Shown here piece by piece: positions 39,211-52,260 of a stretch of 64,000 bases of DNA. The position numbers were made by a program, and so were the translations under genes. The notes under the pieces are model-generated. The model did not search any database. It was not told the DNA's origin and was given only the letters and a program-made list of their open reading frames with translations. This DNA comes from Haliotis rubra (Eukaryota). The stretch's first letter is position 1. Every line of letters begins with the position of its first letter. The stretch covers positions 434,001 through 498,000 of the forward strand of contig NW_025767179.1 of NCBI RefSeq assembly GCF_003918875.1, written 5' to 3'.

Positions 39211-40863
39211 TACTCGAATTCAAAATTAGATAGGCACTGTAATCAATTCATTACAGAAATGGACATAATAAGCGGATCAAAAACACTTTTCGTATACAAT
39301 ATCTTGACACATCAGTGAATAACTCAGCACAATTCCAAGACATGACGTGAACGTTTGCAGTCCATTCAGACTCTTGACTTCAGTATCTAGTGTGACCATC
39401 ACGAGCGGCAATAACTGCAGCACAGCGTCTATGCATGGAGTGTTAACTAGCGTAATATATCCCCAAACCGGAAGTTTACATGCTTCGAATGGAACAGCGC
39501 ATGACCGGATGCCTCAGAGTGGATATTATGGACTGTCGAGCACAAGCACATGGCGTGCAATGTTGTATCTGGTATTCATGAACTGAATAAAGCCAATTTA
39601 ACATGGAGTGCACAAATCAATTGATGAAGACCATTGGCACCTTGAACCACACTCTGAGAAAAGCCTGGCGCAATAAGTCGGCTGTGTTCGGCCTTGGTGT
39701 GACATTATTCAGTCTCCTCTGAATTTCATCCCAAAGATGTTCAACTCGGTTTAAATCAGGACTATGCATAATGTTGACACAGTTCTGCTTTAGGAAGTCC
39801 CGTGTAGCTCTGGCAGTATGGGCCCGGGCGTTATCATGCTGGAAATTGTTGTTCCGGTGACGTGCGAAATGTGGTATGACGTGGGGTCTGAGAGCTTGGT
39901 CGATGTAGCGCTGTGGTGCCGCCTCCTCTCCCTGGACCAAGGTTCTGGAACACCACAGGACCCACTCTTTGGTTCAGGCCTATTCCACCCCATACCATGA
40001 TGTTTGCACCTCCCCATGAGTCTCTTTCCATAACAGATTGGTCTGACTTACGCTGACCACGTCGTCGCCATATTCTTGTTCTGCCATCTGCAGTTGATAC
40101 GCAGTACCGACTCTCATCTATGAACAGAACAGTTCTCCACTGCCTGTATCGCCAGTTTTGGTGTTGTAGGGCAAACTGTAGACGTTCACGCCGATGACGA
40201 GGGGTGTGGATAGGTCCGCGGTAAGGTCTACGGCAATGGAGGTTCCCGCTGTTAAGACGTCGGCGTACTGTATCAGTGCTGATTGGTCTTCCCTGTGTTC
40301 CCACTGTCTGGCGTGCTGCTTTGGATGCCTGCATGAAGGGATTCTGTACATAGTGTCGCACAAAATGGCGGTCTTGTCGTCTTGTGGTCACCCGTTGTCT
40401 GCCAGTACGGGGGCGATCATTTGTGGTTTTGGTGGCCCGGAAACGTTGCTACAGCCTGTTGATGGTCCGAATGTTGACCTGGAAGTGATTGGCAACGGCT
40501 TGTGCAGTGTGGCCAGCTTCAAGTCTTTCTAGCGCCTGGTTCCTCTGGGCTGTCGTGAGAAGGGGCATTCTGCTGACGTTGTAATGTGAATGTTTCAATC
40601 AGGTTTGGGGGTGCATGTTATAGGGCTGATCCTTGTGAACAGCACGTGCTGCATGAGTTGCATGAAAAACATGGAGAACACCGTACCGAGATCAGGTTGC
40701 GTTTTTGAGACCATTTCCTGGGTTCCATTCTGAGTTTGGGAAGGAATGGCTTTGCTCAGGTTGGAGATTTGTCAAAAATATACAATCAAAACATTAAATG
40801 AGTTTACAGTTATCTGTTTCTGCGAAGGAAAAGCCCAAACTGACGTTTCTTTTGCTACTCAGT
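39211..40863 (-). mobile_element. Degraded Tc1 transposon
   Basis: Transposase from ATG 40568 through FIDESRY, GGANIMVWGGI, FQHDNARAH and SPDLNRVEHLW, ending ...DGHTRY* near 39380. It is frameshifted and interrupted by a small insertion. The termini are uncertain. Confidence 0.85.
39443..39601. mobile_element. Small MITE-like insertion with 9-bp TSD inside the Tc1 transposase
   Basis: catggagtg at 39434-39442 and 39602-39610. Imperfect inverted termini ttaactagc / gccaatttaa. Removing the insert rejoins the transposase C-terminus. Confidence 0.7.
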
Positions 40864-44021: not shown

Positions 44022-44150
44022 NNNNNNNNNNNNNNNNNNNNNNNNNNNNNNNNNNNNNNNNNNNNNNNNNNNNNNNNNNNNNNNNNNNNNNNNNNNNNNN
44101 NNNNNNNNNNNNNNNNNNNNNNNNNNNNNNNNNNNNNNNNNNNNNNNNNC
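44022..44150. other. Assembly gap
   Basis: Run of N. Confidence 1.
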
Positions 44151-44617: not shown

Positions 44618-47600
44618 CTTCAATCTTTAATTCAATCTTTATTTCGTACTGAAGAGGCCACAGGCCTTTAGTACATATACATATATAATGGGGAATTACA
44701 TAAATAAATATATTTACATTACAGTGATAAAACTTTTGTTCTATACAACATTGCAGTGTGGATGAACATGGCAAGATTTTGTAATATATTTTGATTTTTA
44801 CTGCTTATAAGGGTAGAGAATTTTATGATGCTTGGATGGATATAGTAATATCTTTTAATGTATTTACAACGTATTGAATTATATGATGGACAGATGAGGA
44901 GAAAGTGATATTCATCTTCAATTTCATTTAAACGACAAAGTGTACATATTCTCTCTTCTCTTTTAACATTTTTATATCTGCCGCTTTCAATCAACAAATC
45001 TTGCGATGAGGATGAACATCGGAATCTTGCTTCTAGTGATCGCCGTAAAATTTAGCGGCAAAAGATCGCAACAAATTATATTAACAGAACACCATTAAGT
45101 ATTCAACTTCATTGACATACATCTTTTTAACTTTTGAATAGTAAAATGGCATTTGTCCGTTGTCAACGAGATGGAGACGCCACTGATTTTCTCACAACCA
45201 TTCTGTTTGAAGATATATGTCTTTAAGTCTTATGGTTAACGACTGAATGATCACTGACGTTGTGATTCTACATGATTGTGCATTCACGAAACGTCTCACC
45301 ATGAAGCCAATTAGTAGAAGATATAAGAAGTTCTGTAACATGGTGATGTCCTAAATTTCTTTATCCATTTAAGTATACTTCATCATACAATAACAAACAT
45401 CATATTATAAAAAGATTTCGTCTTATGGTTAACGACTGATGAATGACGTATGAAGGCATATTTAACAGTTTTAACCAATATTTGATAAAAAATTCGGTAA
45501 CCGATATGAAGGCATTTATGCTTGTAAACAAGTGCATTGGATATCTGCCACATTCACCGTAAACTACTGCATTAACTGTATTCAATTTAACACCAAGATA
45601 TTTTTGCATGCATACAAGTGTATTCTTTCTATTTGATGAAAGTCTGCTAATCCCCAGATTTCTGCTCCGTACGTCAAAATTGGGTTTATCTTTGCATCAA
45701 AAATCTTAAAAAAGGTTTTGTAACTAATATCTCCAAGTGTACTTACTGTCTTCATAATACCAATAAGTGCCTTTTGCGCTTGGAGCGAAGCATATTTGAC
45801 ATGCATGTTCCAAGACAAACCATTGGTAAAATACAATCCCAAATATTTATAATAGCTAACACAGTCTAGATGTATACCATTAAACAACCACTTTTCTTTT
45901 TTAGAAAGTTTACCTCCCTTTTTAAAGACTATGATTTTTGTTTTCTCTCTGTTTACTGTTAATTTCCATTTATCGCAGTAATGTTCGAGTTCATTTATTT
46001 GATTTTGGAGGCCACTAACGGTGCTTGAAAACAACACAATGTCGTCTGCAAACAACAGAAGGAAGATTTTAAATATTTCTGGGTGAAGTTGTATGCCACT
46101 TAAGCAATTAGTTTCGATTTGAACAGCAAGCTCATTGATGAAAAATGAAAACAGGAAAGGAATAAGTATACATCCTTGCCTTACACCAAGTTTTAATTCG
46201 AACGTTTCCGAAAATTCTTGATTATTTTTAACACATGCCTTCACGATCATACATATTAGTCAAAAGTTTACTCATTTTATTACTGAGACCATGATATTGA
46301 AATAGAGACCAAAGCTTGTTGCGTTGGACAGAGTCAAAGGCTTTCGCAAAATCTACAAATAGGGCATATACTTTTCCTCCTTTTAAATTCAAATATCTCT
46401 GTATTATACTTTGTAAAATAAACATGTTATCAACAGTGGTATATCCATGTCTAAATCCAGCTTGCGATTCATTTATCTTATCCATTGTATCTCCCCAGCT
46501 TACAAGTCTCTTATTAACTATAAAAGTGAAAATTTTACTAAATATACTAAGTAATGTTATTCCTCTATAGTTATTTGGGTTATTTGCATCACCATGTTTA
46601 TGGATCGGAACAATGATACCAATCGTCCAACATTTTGGGAAAGTACCATTTTCCAATATGATATTAAATAGTAGTTCTAGGTATGGAGCGATAAGGTCGG
46701 ACGAGTGTTTAAAGAATTCTGATATCATGCCATCAAATCCTGGTGATTTGTTTGATTTAAGATTGTCAATACTTTCAAAAATCTCTTCTCTAGTGATTGG
46801 TGAATCAAGTATATCTGCCGTAAGTTCTGAATTTTGCCGGCTCAGGTTGGTTTGCTCTGTATTGTCATGATAATTATGGTCATTTTTATTATCTACTCTA
46901 TGAACACCACAAAAGAGTTGCCCAAAGTGTGCCTACCAATCGTGTATCTGAATATTGTTTTGCCTTACTTGATGGTTATTTAAAGTTCAGACAAGAAATG
47001 TTTGGAATTAGATATGCTATTTTCTATTGTTATTCGTTTTTCTCTAAAATAGTCAATACGGTTTTTTTTGCAAAGTGCATTATATTGGTTTCTTACGATG
47101 CAATATTGATCAAATGAATGCTTGTCTTTACATTTCCGGAACTTATTGAGAAATTTGCATCTTTCGGTTTTTAGTTTTTCGCAATCTGAGTCAAACCAAC
47201 TTTTCAAGTATGCTTTTGATTGACCAACTTTTTTCTCATACAAGAAGCCGCTGAGCAGATCGCATCTGTCATATATCGTATACTTTCATCTATACTAGTG
47301 AAAGCACAATCAACAGATTTATCTAGCAATTCCTGAACGTTTTCAGATAACAAATTTTCCTGAACTGTCCTGACTTATCATTATCCCAAGTAAACCTGTA
47401 CGTAATTTCAGATCTTTTATCATGTGTATCAGCTTTTCTATTATGATTTGATTTTATTCGTAATATAATGGGAAGATGGTCTGATTCTATGCGTGATTGT
47501 ATACTGAAATCATTTACATAGTCAAATAATGCTGCTGACGAAATAACATAATCAATAACACTGGTACCATTCAGACCTATGTAAGTAAAATCTCCGAGTT

Positions 47601-49697
47601 GTGCATCACTGCCACAACGACCATTCATAATATGAATATTAAAAACGGAGCACATGTCAAGAAGAGTTTTACCAAACCTGTTTATAACTTTGTCGGCGGA
47701 GAACCGTTTAAGATGGAAATAGTCTATAAGAAAGTCCCAGTACGAATGGTTTTGAGTTTCAGTGTATTCCAGCAGATCATCCTCGATAAAATCGGGGTCT
47801 ATTCCCGTACGCGCATTGAAATCTCCGCCACAGAAGATATAGCAGTCTGGTACAGAAGAAACAATTAATAATAGGTTATCCTGAAATAAATTTACACCAT
47901 TATTACATAGTGGTGAGTATTTATCATACCAAGTGGATGCTTCAGGCTGTACATATACACAAGAGTACAAACTATCTTTGTCTAGGTGAAACAGTGTATG
48001 GTCAAACATGATAAATATAGCGTTTTCTGTTACTTTAGACCATTTCATGTAATCATAAAACTCTTTCTTTATCAGTACAACGATACCCCCGGAAGGTCTC
48101 CCCTTATTAGATATTTTTTGTGCATTTTTTTCAATCAACTTAAAATCACTGAAAATATTTTCTAGGTCTAAGTCAAGCGACCAAGTTTCAGTAATACCAA
48201 TTATATCAAGTGATTTGATATAATCTACGAAACAAGCGTCTGTAAGTTTTTGCACGATACCGGAAATGTTCCAGAAAATAAAATTGACTATTTCACAAAC
48301 ATTTTCACAATCGTCAGTCTCATTCACAACACTTTGATGCGTCAAAGAACGTCTCACATGATCCTGGCCCTGGCCACCTCCCTAGCGGGTGTGGTCTCTG
48401 TCAGTGGGTCGCGATGACGATCTCAGACCCTGTCTCGTGCCCCCGCGGTCTCGGTCTCCACGATTGTCCGACCTCGGTTTACTCCGTGTGTCCCCAGATC
48501 TACCTTGGTCTTCCTTAGGGTCCTGCATTATCTTGCCCCCCTTATAGTAGAAGCGGGTGTCGGGGTGTGCATCTCTCAGGCGGTTGAGTTCTTTTCGCTG
48601 ATAGGTGGTGAGATCATTGGCTATACCAACACCCTGCTCTTTAAGTACACTCCTCAATTTGACAGAATGCCACTTATCTTCCCAGTGGTTCATACGGACG
48701 ATAATCGGTCTTGTCTTATCGCTCTTTTTGCCGATCCTATGGGCTCTCTCAATGTCTCTAGGTGTAAGGGGTGGGAGATCTTTAGTCACTCTCGCTTTAT
48801 TGAGAAAAATATCGATCACTTTGTTCTTGCTTTCTGTGTAGGTCTCATTATCATCAGTTTCCTGGACATTATATAACACAATGTTATTCCTCCTGCTACG
48901 CTGTTCCTGATCCTCTAGATGTGTGTCTAGATTGTCTAATTGTGCCTCTATATCTGTTGTTTTATCATTTAAAGTGTCAATATCCATTCTAATGACATCT
49001 TGTTCTTGTTTATTGGTGTAGATTTCTTCTCTTAGTTCATTGATGTCTAATTTTATAGATTTTATGTCCTCTTTAACCGAACAAATATCTTTAGAAAGTC
49101 TATTTTCCGAGTCCTTTATCTGCCGGAGGATTACCCTCTGTACCTCGTCTAAATCGGTGGTAGGTCCCGGGTTTGTCTCGACATCTCCAGAGAGAAGAAT
49201 AATGGGTGATCTGACACTATTCGCAGGGAGGGGTGGGGGTAGGAACAGACGAGTACGATCGATACTGAGCCGGGGTGTGCTATCCGTGACGTTACTGCTT
49301 GGACACAAATGTAAACAAACAGTTTCTGGATGGCAAAACTCACTCGGGTAGTCTTTGTAGCTCGCACACTGTTCAATATATCGAATCAGGGAGAATGATA
49401 AGATGAGATGCACAGACAAGAACACAAAACATGCGTTGAGTCGGAGCGGCATGTCAGAGCCAGCCGTGAACGGTGTATACCTGTCAACATGGCTGATGTG
49501 TCGGGTACCACTAGGGTGTGAAAAAGTCCCAATCCTTGCTCTGTAGAGCACTATATTTATCATTTTTCACATGAAACTCTTCACTGATCCCTTATGGATG
49601 TATACGATATAGTTTTAGATTCTGGTGATGTGTGGATTATTATTTACCCTATATTTTCCCTGACTGCTCTTTTTCCGTGACTCGTCTCTAGGGGCGC
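44618..49697 (-). mobile_element. Near full-length CR1/L2-group LINE (ORF1 open, ORF2 frameshifted)
   Basis: ORF1 49563-48382 (coiled coil, RRNNIVLYNV, HRIG). ORF2 pieces: APE 48357-47323 (WNISG, TETW, GDFNAR, SDHLP), RT 46728-45582 (NYRGITLL, FVDFAKAFDSV, GVRQGC, LFADD) and C-terminal CTLC...HFLLIC 44997-44719. The 3' end has a stem-loop, AATAAA and attgaa repeats at 44618-44675. The 5' boundary is approximate. Confidence 0.92.
49162..49200 (-). other. 2A-like (StopGo) ribosomal skipping motif in LINE ORF1
   Basis: ILLSGDVETNPG|P matches the D(V/I)ExNPGP consensus. Confidence 0.85.
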
Positions 49698-50938: not shown

Positions 50939-52108
50939 GCACTATCACTACTGAATCTTCTAAAGCCACAAGTCACATGATCGAAACCGAAAACAATCGC
51001 TTTGTGACGAACTAAGTAAATATTCCATCTTTAAACTTCCAAGTAAGTGAGGAAGTGTTCTTTCCGAATTCGAATGTGACATAATGCATTCTAGTAGTGG
51101 TAATCACTATTTCTTATTAACTGAGGTAGAACCAGTCCACTTTTAGATTGAAGCGTTGGACGCAGTCAGAAATATATCGGACTCCTGTTTATAACAAAAA
51201 TGTCTTTTCCCGAAATCGGAATATACCAAAAGAATGAACATAAGTAGAACTGTGGATCTTTTGCAGACAGAAATCAATATTTGCAGCAAAGAGCGTTTGG
51301 GTGGTCCTGGCACAGATAGGCTGGTTAGGCTTATCGTCAGCTCAGGGCACTTGCCCCTTCTACACGCAGCCTCGACAGCGAATGAGTGTTCTCCCATGAA
51401 GTAATGCCTTCCCGAACCCACCAACATTGTATCGGAGAATAAGAAGACTCCCCAAGTTAGTGTTTCAAAAGGACATTCTCCTGAACGATAAACAATCCTA
51501 TGATAGTTGTTAATATCTTTAATCAGAGCAATGACAAATCAGTGTCATTGGAGAATCACGTGTTTTTGCAATGACCTTGGCCTATTCAATCATTGTTTTA
51601 ATTATTGAAGCTTTCTAAAATTTTACTGTTACAGATGGTCATGATGATTGCCATCATATTTTATCGTGTTACTCACTAAACAAAACTGAATTCATTTTTC
51701 TAATTGCATTTACAAATATATATTTGTTCTGCGATCTGACCATGCAAGATTTAATGTTTAAAAGATGAAGGTCTTCCATGTATCCCCTGGGATATAAGAA
51801 TCACAGTTAAGCATGTCCTGCTTAACTGTATTAATTTTTCCATCACAAGGGATAAATATTTCAGTGTAAAACAGGGAAGAGTATTTTTTTATAATGACAA
51901 TTCTCATTTAGGTATTGCTTTCTTAAAATATATAGAATTGTTGGATAAATTTTGATATATATGTTGTAAACAGGTAATGTTTTACAATTGGTAGATTGAG
52001 TGAGTGAGTTAATATTTAACGTCACATCGGCAATATCTCAGCCATATCGTGACGAAAACAATTTATACAATACAAAATGAAAACATGCCGATGTGACTAT
52101 GAATGTTA

Positions 52109-52260
52109 GGGGCGGTTGGGTAGCCTAGTGGTTAAAGCGTTCGCTCGTCACACTGAAGACCCGGGTTCGATTCCCCACATGGGTTCAATGCGTAAAGCAC
52201 ATTTCTGGTGTCCCCCGCCGTGATATTGCTAAAAGCGGCGTACAACTAAACTCACTCACT
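52109..52260 (+). mobile_element. tRNA-headed SINE (family B), representative copy
   Basis: A box GTAGCCTAGTGG, B box GGTTCGATTCC and (ACTC)n tail. Other copies lie at about 2312-2476, 8828-8992, 37937-38045, 58497-58591 and 62626-62741. Confidence 0.85.

What the first reader, a model, noticed from the sequence alone, without database searches (positions are those of the whole stretch)
47323..49563. Double recoding in one LINE: 2A skip plus possible readthrough gives a virus-like expression cassette
Seen: ILLSGDVETNPG|P at ORF1 codons about 122-134. Skipping would release a 133-aa leader and a 260-aa coiled-coil/RRM ORF1p starting at Pro. Established: 2A motifs occur in APE-type non-LTR elements. 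Inference: one AUG could yield leader, ORF1p and an ORF1p-APE-RT fusion in fixed ratios, paralleling gag/gag-pol control.
Basis: partly seen in the sequence, partly recalled or inferred. Interest (0 to 1): 0.75.

Follow-up and report, generated by a model that had tools for sequence, protein, structure and literature searches.

The report
Jumping gene with two translation tricks
A dead copy of an animal jumping gene belongs to an old family that keeps both a ribosome-skip peptide in its first gene and a single stop codon with a fixed short RNA signal between its two genes, so its copying enzyme is probably made when ribosomes read through that stop, which has not yet been tested.

Summary
Both features are real and family-wide. 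The minus strand holds a decayed RTEX-like LINE. ORF1 (393 aa) is a hydrophobic leader, a canonical 2A motif and an L1-type coiled-coil/RRM protein. One TAG follows, then the endonuclease in the same frame, with no AUG before its catalytic residues. In 7 of 7 relatives with an intact 2A-ORF1 and a visible endonuclease (27-53% identical) the two ORFs abut in frame across one stop. The conserved signal is not UAG-G but GGC(C) ten bases after the first stop base: 15 of 16 ORF1 ends, against 0.8% of background stops, while 0 of 14 other invariant four-fold codon columns keep their third base. Programmed readthrough to an ORF1p-ORF2p fusion is the best reading (about 0.65); nothing was assayed, and fixed ratios are untested. 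The motif has a complement in the element's own 3' UTR (2 of 2 complete elements; controls weak). 2A before the ORF1p coiled coil is already published; LINE readthrough was only suggested, for Paramecium. This scan noted in-frame LINE junctions twice before on other DNA, without this motif. This copy's ORF2 is broken, so it cannot make the full fusion.

The parts
48382..49563 (-). ORF1, 393 aa, ATG to TAG, intact in this copy
49165..49563 (-). Leader peptide, 133 aa, released if the 2A skips. Starts with a family motif [WYF]RxxIGx[FHY] (49545-49522; 91 of 150 relatives) and holds a hydrophobic segment (49440-49384)
   Evidence: Kyte-Doolittle 19-mer mean 2.1 here; at least 1.6 in 97 of 114 leaders and 0 of 114 ORF1p bodies
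49162..49200 (-). 2A-like StopGo motif ILLSGDVETNPG|P; skip site between 49165 and 49164
   Evidence: last 12 residues equal those of two viral 2As listed as active
48385..49164 (-). ORF1p body, 260 aa: coiled coil (49152-48892), RRM and CTD (48891-48517), basic disordered tail
48382..48384 (-). Single TAG between ORF1 and ORF2, same frame
   Evidence: no variant among the 40 best-supported rows of contigs from three organisms, 173 rows not shown
48366..48375 (-). Conserved junction signal GGCCAGGGCC at +10 to +19 (first stop base = +1), after a 6-base spacer
47326..48381 (-). ORF2 first segment: APE endonuclease; WN motif at codon 37, ETW at 65, first Met only at codon 112
45451..47368 (-). 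ORF2 tether and reverse transcriptase in pieces (five frame changes against intact relative L003); RTEX-like
   Evidence: by-eye comparison with RTEX RT domains
44719..45030 (-). ORF2 C-terminal cysteine/histidine piece and final TAA
44656..44666 (-). 3' UTR element GGCCTGTGGCC: a local hairpin and also the complement of the junction signal
44620..44643 (-). AATAAA (44643-44638) and short ATTGA-type tail: the element's 3' end
   Evidence: same layout in L002; no target-site duplication found

Best explanation
This is a dead genomic copy of an RTEX-like LINE family that expresses both ORFs from one AUG with two recoding steps. Step 1 (inferred from motif and family conservation): the 2A motif makes ribosomes skip the Gly-Pro bond, parting a hydrophobic, probably membrane-seeking 133-aa leader from a soluble 260-aa L1-type ORF1p; it may also damp downstream output. 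Step 2 (inferred): most ribosomes stop at the UAG, but a minority insert an amino acid and go on into ORF2, helped by a GGCC-purine-purine-(G/A)GCC element placed six bases past the stop, about where mRNA enters the ribosome. The product is an ORF1p-endonuclease-RT fusion that its coiled coil can carry into ORF1p trimers on the RNA, as Gag-Pol joins Gag. Shown here: the anatomy, the kept frame, selection on the RNA letters of the signal, and the lack of an AUG before the catalytic residues. Not shown: any skipping, any readthrough, any ratio.
For: Frame: 7 of 7 relatives with ORF1 open from 2A to stop and the endonuclease start in view (L001-L005, L007, L036) have it in frame straight after one stop; chance about (1/3)^7 = 5e-4 if independent. 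They are 27-53% identical in the endonuclease and saturated at silent sites (window vs L001: 17 of 59 third bases equal). Signal: GGC at +10 to +12 in 15 of 16 2A-bearing ORF1 ends, against 34 of 4139 TAR triplets in the window; GGC is 48 of 246 Gly codons in these ORF2s; the junction Gly is GGC in 11 of 11 aligned rows while 0 of 14 other invariant four-fold columns keep one third base. No in-frame Met before the first catalytic motif (WN) in 10 of 12 junctions; first Met at codon 82, 105 and 227 in the open ORF2s of L003, L005, L036. Two database proteins carry a sense residue in the stop's register: Gln then D-N-G-R-G in a full ORF1-endonuclease fusion (P0228) and Tyr then D-N-G-R-G (P0227). 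Spacer-plus-3'-element is the layout of known stimulators (PMC3159437, passages). 2A; mollusc LINE 2As were active in reporters (PMC3708506).
Against: No functional or RNA data: no RNA run held the stretch (Tried and rejected). No stable fold 3' of the stop: z above -1.6 in 11 of 12 loci at 60 bases and in all 12 at 120 bases; the shared hairpin has only three pairs and fails or is imperfect in 4 of 13. Tca2 has an in-frame gag-UGA-pol junction whose flanks did not drive readthrough in yeast reporters (PMC2194720, abstract). Mammalian L1 and SART1 use termination-reinitiation, and caliciviral reinitiation tolerates mutated start codons (PMC5972666, passages). L001 has an in-frame ATG at codon 7 and L012 one at codon 21. 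L006 has an intact 2A-ORF1 with TAA, no GGC and no ORF2 in the next 435 bases. Many farther endonuclease relatives are called with a Met just before WN (33 of 53 hits include WN, most starting at a called Met, which may be GTG or TTG), so the arrangement is not clade-wide. 13 of the 14 relatives were found by the 2A pattern, five of them in one assembly, so co-occurrence is biased. This copy's 2A has a Pro 14 residues before the skip site, seen in 0 of 111 relatives. P0227 and P0228 were seen as proteins only; their DNA and genetic code were not seen.
Confidence: 0.62

Rival explanations
1. Terminate-and-resume: ribosomes release ORF1p at the UAG and restart in frame at or just past the stop without an AUG, giving a free ORF2p; the GGCC element holds the ribosome in place.
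For: LINE precedent for AUG-tolerant or structure-aided reinitiation (L1, SART1 with a downstream structure). Explains the missing AUG and a downstream signal. None of 223 fetched ORF1 relatives runs on into the endonuclease.
Against: Known reinitiation does not need ORF1 and ORF2 in one frame, yet 7 of 7 are. Linker length after the stop varies from 15 to 37 codons with no fixed alternative start codon. A fused ORF1-endonuclease protein exists in the same register (P0228).
Confidence: 0.17
2. Readthrough is real but the 2A is inactive or acts only as a brake on output, so there is one recoding event that splits products, not two.
For: Several canonical-looking LINE 2As were inactive in reporters; 70% of ORF1p 2As tested fell in 'reduction' classes; Pro in the upstream helix region of this copy; 80 of 114 relatives have a Met within 40 residues after the skip site, though this copy does not.
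Against: D, E, P-G-P are invariant in an 18-row alignment at 22-44% identity; the motif always sits between a hydrophobic leader and the coiled coil; identical last 12 residues are active in viruses (0.38 and 0.94); two Leu in the -19 to -10 stretch is the skip-like range of the preprint.
Confidence: 0.12
3. A-to-I editing turns UAG into a Trp codon in some transcripts, or splicing or an internal promoter yields a separate ORF2 message.
For: UAG is the stop in 14 of 15 junctions; TAG-G and CAG-G resemble splice acceptors; Tca2's junction holds a minor promoter.
Against: One junction has TAA; the conserved letters lie 3' of the stop, not around it; no pairing over the stop was predicted; AG is not at a fixed place and upstream bases are not pyrimidine-rich; edited or spliced RNA would be copied back into DNA, yet no common change at the TAG and no intron-like joint appears in the rows shown; the two sense replacements seen are Gln and Tyr, not Trp.
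Confidence: 0.06
4. Chance: the TAG is a nonsense change or an accidental abutment in a dead copy.
For: This copy is decayed elsewhere.
Against: Stop, frame and signal recur in families saturated at silent sites, including ones with open ORF2s of 1105+ and 1159 codons.
Confidence: 0.03

Closest known systems
LINE ORF1p with a 2A before the coiled coil (one limpet, five ticks; bioRxiv 10.64898/2026.06.17.732966, sections 12-13 read)
   Same: 2A ahead of coiled coil, RRM and CTD of an L1-type ORF1p.
   Different: The sections read do not treat the ORF1-ORF2 junction, the leader's hydrophobic segment or the clade. Tick junctions were not seen here.
2A in APE-type non-LTR elements (Odon et al. 2013, PMC3708506; parts 1-4 of 6 and one supplement part read)
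   Same: Same GD[V/I]ExNPGP motif near the 5' end; active in mollusc elements.
   Different: There 2A is in ORF2 of mostly single-ORF elements of Rex1, L2, L2A, Crack, CR1 and Ingi, with one inactive ORF1 case; RTEX is not listed.
Paramecium non-LTR Group 3 (Guerin et al. 2017, PMC5405496; passages)
   Same: ORF1 and ORF2 in one frame; read-through suggested.
   Different: A separate ciliate clade; suggestion from consensus only in the passages seen; no 2A or nucleotide signal mentioned there.
Type III (UAG-G) readthrough: MuLV gag-pol, tombusviruses (PMC3159437 and PMC8310308 passages, PMC3234231 abstract)
   Same: Structural gene, UAG, polymerase in frame; short spacer then a 3' element; in tombusviruses a pairing of about 3.5 kb with the genome's 3' end, close to the 3.5-3.7 kb here.
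   Different: No pseudoknot or large stem-loop found; no protease to cut the fusion; +4 G is not fixed; a LINE, not a virus; untested.
L1 and SART1 ORF2 expression (PMC5972666, passages)
   Same: Two-ORF LINE, ORF2 translation coupled to ORF1; L1-type ORF1p fold.
   Different: They have a spacer or an overlapping stop-start with AUG and give a free ORF2p.
Tca2 of Candida albicans (PMC2194720, abstract)
   Same: In-frame stop junction in a retroelement with bypass needed.
   Different: LTR element, UGA; local flanks were not enough for readthrough.

Membership tests
APE-type non-LTR retrotransposon (LINE) | APE endonuclease followed by non-LTR reverse transcriptase | tested here: met
   Pfam Exo_endo_phos above cut-off, RVT_1 E 1e-12 and 5e-18
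APE-type non-LTR retrotransposon (LINE) | ORF1p with coiled coil, RRM, CTD (L1 / type II) | tested here: met
APE-type non-LTR retrotransposon (LINE) | 3' UTR with poly(A) signal and repeat tail; target-site duplication | tested here: inconclusive
   AATAAA and short tail present; no duplication of 7 bases or more found, 5' end not fixed
RTEX clade | RT domain groups with RTEX references in a tree | tested here: inconclusive
   By-eye match to RTEX_NV/BF/SK rows rather than RTE or Proto2 rows of the RTclass1 set (one of 51 parts read); no tree with named references was built
Class A 2A / StopGo peptide | Core GD[V/I]ExNPGP | tested here: met
Class A 2A / StopGo peptide | Hydrophobic, Leu-rich stretch just upstream | tested here: met
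   IILL fits the family profile; one atypical Pro before it
Class A 2A / StopGo peptide | Measured peptide-bond skipping | not testable with these tools
   needs a reporter
Programmed stop-codon readthrough | One stop, in frame, kept across diverged lineages, with an essential ORF behind it | tested here: met
Programmed stop-codon readthrough | Downstream ORF has no usable start of its own | tested here: met
   no Met before WN in 10 of 12; non-AUG starts cannot be excluded
Programmed stop-codon readthrough | Nucleotide-level conservation 3' of the stop | tested here: met
   GGC 11 of 11 against 0 of 14 control columns
Programmed stop-codon readthrough | Fusion product with an amino acid at the stop | not testable with these tools
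   needs proteomics, ribosome profiling or a reporter
Gammaretrovirus-type (UAG-G, 8-base spacer, pseudoknot) | Compact pseudoknot or strong stem 3' of the stop | tested here: not met
   no significant nested fold; pseudoknots were not modelled, but only about 10 bases are conserved
Type I / II leaky contexts (UAG-CAR-YYA, UGA-CUA/CGG) | Context hexamer or triplet | tested here: not met
   +4 to +9 vary freely; CAA follows the stop in 2 of 15 only
Tombusvirid-type long-range stimulator | Pairing of a stop-proximal element with the 3' end, with compensatory changes | tested here: inconclusive
   complement present in 2 of 2 complete elements and own UTR pairs better in both; controls weak

The most novel reading that the evidence does not exclude
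A broad group of animal RTEX-like LINEs uses a new readthrough signal whose GGCC element pairs with a GGCC hairpin at the far 3' end of the same RNA, about 3.6 kb away. Reverse transcriptase would then be made only from full-length RNA, fused to ORF1p, and the 3' hairpin would switch between licensing readthrough and serving as the template end for reverse transcription; a 2A site first frees ORF1p from a membrane anchor.
Probability: 0.2. Interest if true: 0.88.

Novelty: new variant of a known kind. Interest (0 to 1): 0.7.

Why it matters
How LINEs make ORF2p from a two-ORF RNA is settled for very few elements, and by reinitiation. A conserved in-frame stop with a ten-base signal across many animal LINE families points to a retrovirus-like solution, a Gag-Pol-type fusion, in a group where it has only been suggested for a ciliate. 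The signal is short, matches none of the three classic readthrough contexts, and can be tested in a simple reporter. It also explains why gene callers start these ORF2 proteins inside the endonuclease, and adds a role for the ORF1 2A: removing a hydrophobic leader. The ORF1 family is large (44,345 clusters at E up to 0.001), though the junction was seen in only 15 elements.

Tried and rejected
No whole genome is held for this window, so copies could not be counted in the host, and the records behind the loci could not be searched. No RNA holder was listed: no evidence on expression either way. A search for longer, fused ORF1 proteins found none (weak by the tool's own note). Three further scans of viral contigs with endonuclease or RT queries found nothing; L027-L034 match through the 2A motif alone and were set aside. 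Of the 27 metagenome loci, 14 were used (L001-L012, L018, L024); dropped before counting: L013-L017, L019-L023, L026, L027 (no ORF1 end with a LINE junction in view, or 2A in another kind of ORF) and L025, whose TAG-N6-GGC lies inside a broken zinc knuckle and is not a junction. Of 4 genome-collection loci, L035 lacks the junction region and L037-L038 lack 2A and have overlapping ORFs. A strong local fold 3' of the stop was not found. For the long-range pairing, an unrelated GGCCTGTGGCC at window 23490 pairs with the window junction almost as well (-24.1 against -25.0 kcal/mol), shuffling the flanks around the core changes little (43% and 15% of 1000 shuffles as good), L004 and L018 junctions pair with the L002 UTR as well as L002's own, and in the window element one ORF1 stretch pairs better than the UTR. 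Endonuclease trees were poorly resolved and unrooted; no order of events is claimed. Pfam does not name ORF1p. A variant genetic code was rejected: ORFs of over 1100 codons are open in the standard code. Look-ups of earlier scan notes by sequence, by place and by the RTEX words gave nothing.
Full report
OBSERVATION. The minus strand from 49563 to about 44620 holds one LINE. ORF1 is open for 393 codons and ends in TAG at 48384-48382; the next codon begins 352 open codons in the same frame. The 2A motif is at codons 122-134, giving 133 + 260 residues. The 260-residue part is an L1-type ORF1p: a profile of 18 relatives hits human L1 ORF1p at E 1.3e-13, and the predicted model (long helix 139-225, then RRM and CTD) ranks L1 ORF1p chains first. 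The frame behind the stop is an APE endonuclease and later pieces are reverse transcriptase. Against an intact relative, ORF2 changes frame five times, so the copy is dead and the finding's lower bound is a decay product. By eye the RT fits the RTEX rows of the RTclass1 set better than RTE or Proto2; no tree with named references was made. The host is not given; named relatives are molluscs and ticks, so a marine invertebrate is inferred. Contigs of four runs from three organisms lie over the stretch at 85-99% identity, so the family is multi-copy.

THE 2A HALF. The strict motif is in 65 of 81 word-seeded hits and 116 of the best 150 profile hits; both searches favour it. D, E and PGP are invariant in an alignment at 22-44% identity. 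The last 12 residues equal those of two dicistrovirus 2As with listed activities 0.38 and 0.94 (PMC12338488, supplement rows). The leader has a hydrophobic 19-mer in 97 of 114 relatives, the body in 0 of 114, and a shared N-terminal motif in 91 of 150; I infer that the skip parts a membrane-seeking piece from ORF1p. This placement of 2A is published for a limpet and five ticks, and 70% of the ORF1p peptides tested there lowered output (bioRxiv 10.64898/2026.06.17.732966, sections 12-13; its supplements are closed and may list closer peptides). Odon et al. found LINE 2As mostly in ORF2, some inactive. This copy has a Pro 14 residues before the skip site, seen in 0 of 111 relatives.

THE JUNCTION. 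Seven relatives have ORF1 open from 2A to its stop and the endonuclease start in view (L001-L005, L007, L036); in all seven the endonuclease follows one stop in frame. L011, L018 and L024 have a broken ORF1 but the last ORF1 segment is again in frame; L012 cannot be framed; L008-L010 end or decay before the endonuclease. Counting the window, 15 of 16 ORF1 ends with a 2A-like motif have GGC at +10 to +12; L006 is the miss and has no ORF2 behind it. The stop is TAG in 14 and TAA in 1; +4 is G in 12 and C in 3; +13 is C in 14; +14 and +15 are nearly always purines; +16 to +19 are mostly GGCC or AGCC. Background is 34 of 4139 TAR triplets in the window. The constraint is on RNA letters: the junction Gly is GGC in 11 of 11 aligned rows, other invariant four-fold columns are never uniform (0 of 14), and silent sites are saturated even to the nearest relative (17 of 59). 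No Met precedes the first catalytic motif in 10 of 12 junctions, and open ORF2s of L003, L005 and L036 have their first Met at codon 82, 105 and 227. L036 matters most, since it was found through the endonuclease and still has 2A, TAG and the full signal. Within the family, the 40 best-supported variant rows include none at the stop or at GGCC, while +7 varies and is changed in all five contigs of organism C; 173 rows were not shown; for one contig of run X6 all four differences are accounted for elsewhere. Among 53 endonuclease relatives, P0228 is a full ORF1-endonuclease fusion with Gln in the stop's register and P0227 has Tyr there, each followed by D-N-G-R-G; both are single records whose DNA was not seen. 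None of 223 ORF1 relatives runs on into the endonuclease. Limits: five loci come from one assembly, 13 of 14 relatives were picked by the 2A pattern, and many farther relatives are called with a Met just before the endonuclease, so the arrangement covers part of the clade only (weak tree).

THE SIGNAL. No stable fold lies 3' of the stop. A three-pair hairpin with a C-purine loop fits 9 of 13, too weak alone. In the 5.2-kb window element GGCC-N1-4-(G/A)GCC occurs twice: at the junction and in the 3' UTR before AATAAA; L002, the only other element with a full 3' end, has it at the same two places and once in between. Each junction pairs better with its own UTR (-25.0 against -19.5; -25.7 against -19.6 kcal/mol), L002 differs from the window on both sides in a matching way, and the common +7 change turns a G-U into an A-U pair. 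But GGCC is a palindrome, an unrelated site pairs as well, and flank shuffles are not significant. The UTR element also folds on itself. This is a lead, modelled on the 3.5-kb tombusvirus pairing (PMC3234231, abstract), not a result.

MECHANISM. Kept frame, no AUG and a letter-level signal six bases past the stop fit programmed readthrough best; known stimulators start 6-12 bases after the stop (PMC3159437, passages). The fusion would join ORF1p trimers through its coiled coil (inference). In-frame resumption without an AUG is the main rival, and Tca2 warns that an in-frame stop need not leak in a reporter. Editing, splicing and chance fit poorly. Odds: readthrough with an active 2A 0.62; resumption 0.17; readthrough with a silent or braking 2A 0.12; RNA processing 0.06; chance 0.03.

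NOVELTY. Seven full-text searches for LINE readthrough or in-frame junctions listed no paper on it in RTEX or animal LINEs; listings were judged by title and abstract start, and passages were read in PMC11203168, PMC4120745, PMC5972666, PMC5009743 and PMC8310308. Repbase entries and subscription journals are not in the library and may already note the in-frame stop. Read-through was suggested for Paramecium Group 3 LINEs, a paper I reached through an earlier scan note; the scan has noted in-frame junctions in an animal LINE (UGA-CUA) and a dinoflagellate LINE, unchecked here. Each ingredient is known; their union in one LINE family and the GGCC signal were not found in print. Verdict: new variant of a known kind, interest 0.7.

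Noticed in passing
L037:4955-4975 and L038:2335-2356: More distant relatives without a 2A have overlapping ORF1 and ORF2 with an A-run at the ORF1 end (A AAA AAC TAA in L037, ORF2 in the -1 frame; two more A in L038). Possibly a sister lineage that fuses the ORFs by frameshifting; both copies are decayed.
   Followed up: partly
L024:4413-6329: A LINE with a different ORF1 (2A, cysteine-rich domain, zinc knuckles) and an endonuclease only 15-26% like the others still has TAG-N6-GGC in frame, without the rest of the motif; the signal may reach beyond the RTEX-like group.
   Followed up: partly
L006:459-1460: Intact 2A-ORF1 ending in TAA with AT-rich non-coding DNA behind it: perhaps a solo-ORF1 element.
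   Followed up: partly
window 49545-49522: The leader's first residues carry a motif [WYF]RxxIGx[FHY] in 91 of 150 relatives, though the rest of the leader varies from about 35 to 235 residues; role unexplained.
   Followed up: partly
window 48536: A one-base loss near the ORF1 3' end is the majority form in contigs of both organism A runs but absent in organisms B and C.
   Followed up: no
L021:832-3969, L025, L026:1862-4474: Long ORFs with a 2A motif in mid-frame next to gag-like zinc-knuckle sequence; look like another kind of retroelement with 2A.
   Followed up: no
window 39834-40448 (-): Tc1/mariner-type transposase fragment (Pfam HTH_Tnp_Tc3_2, E 9e-14).
   Followed up: no
window 44023-44149: Assembly gap (run of N) about 470 bases past the element's 3' end.
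   Followed up: no
window 52100-52230: Stretch that looks by eye like a tRNA-derived SINE (recalled pattern, not tested).
   Followed up: no
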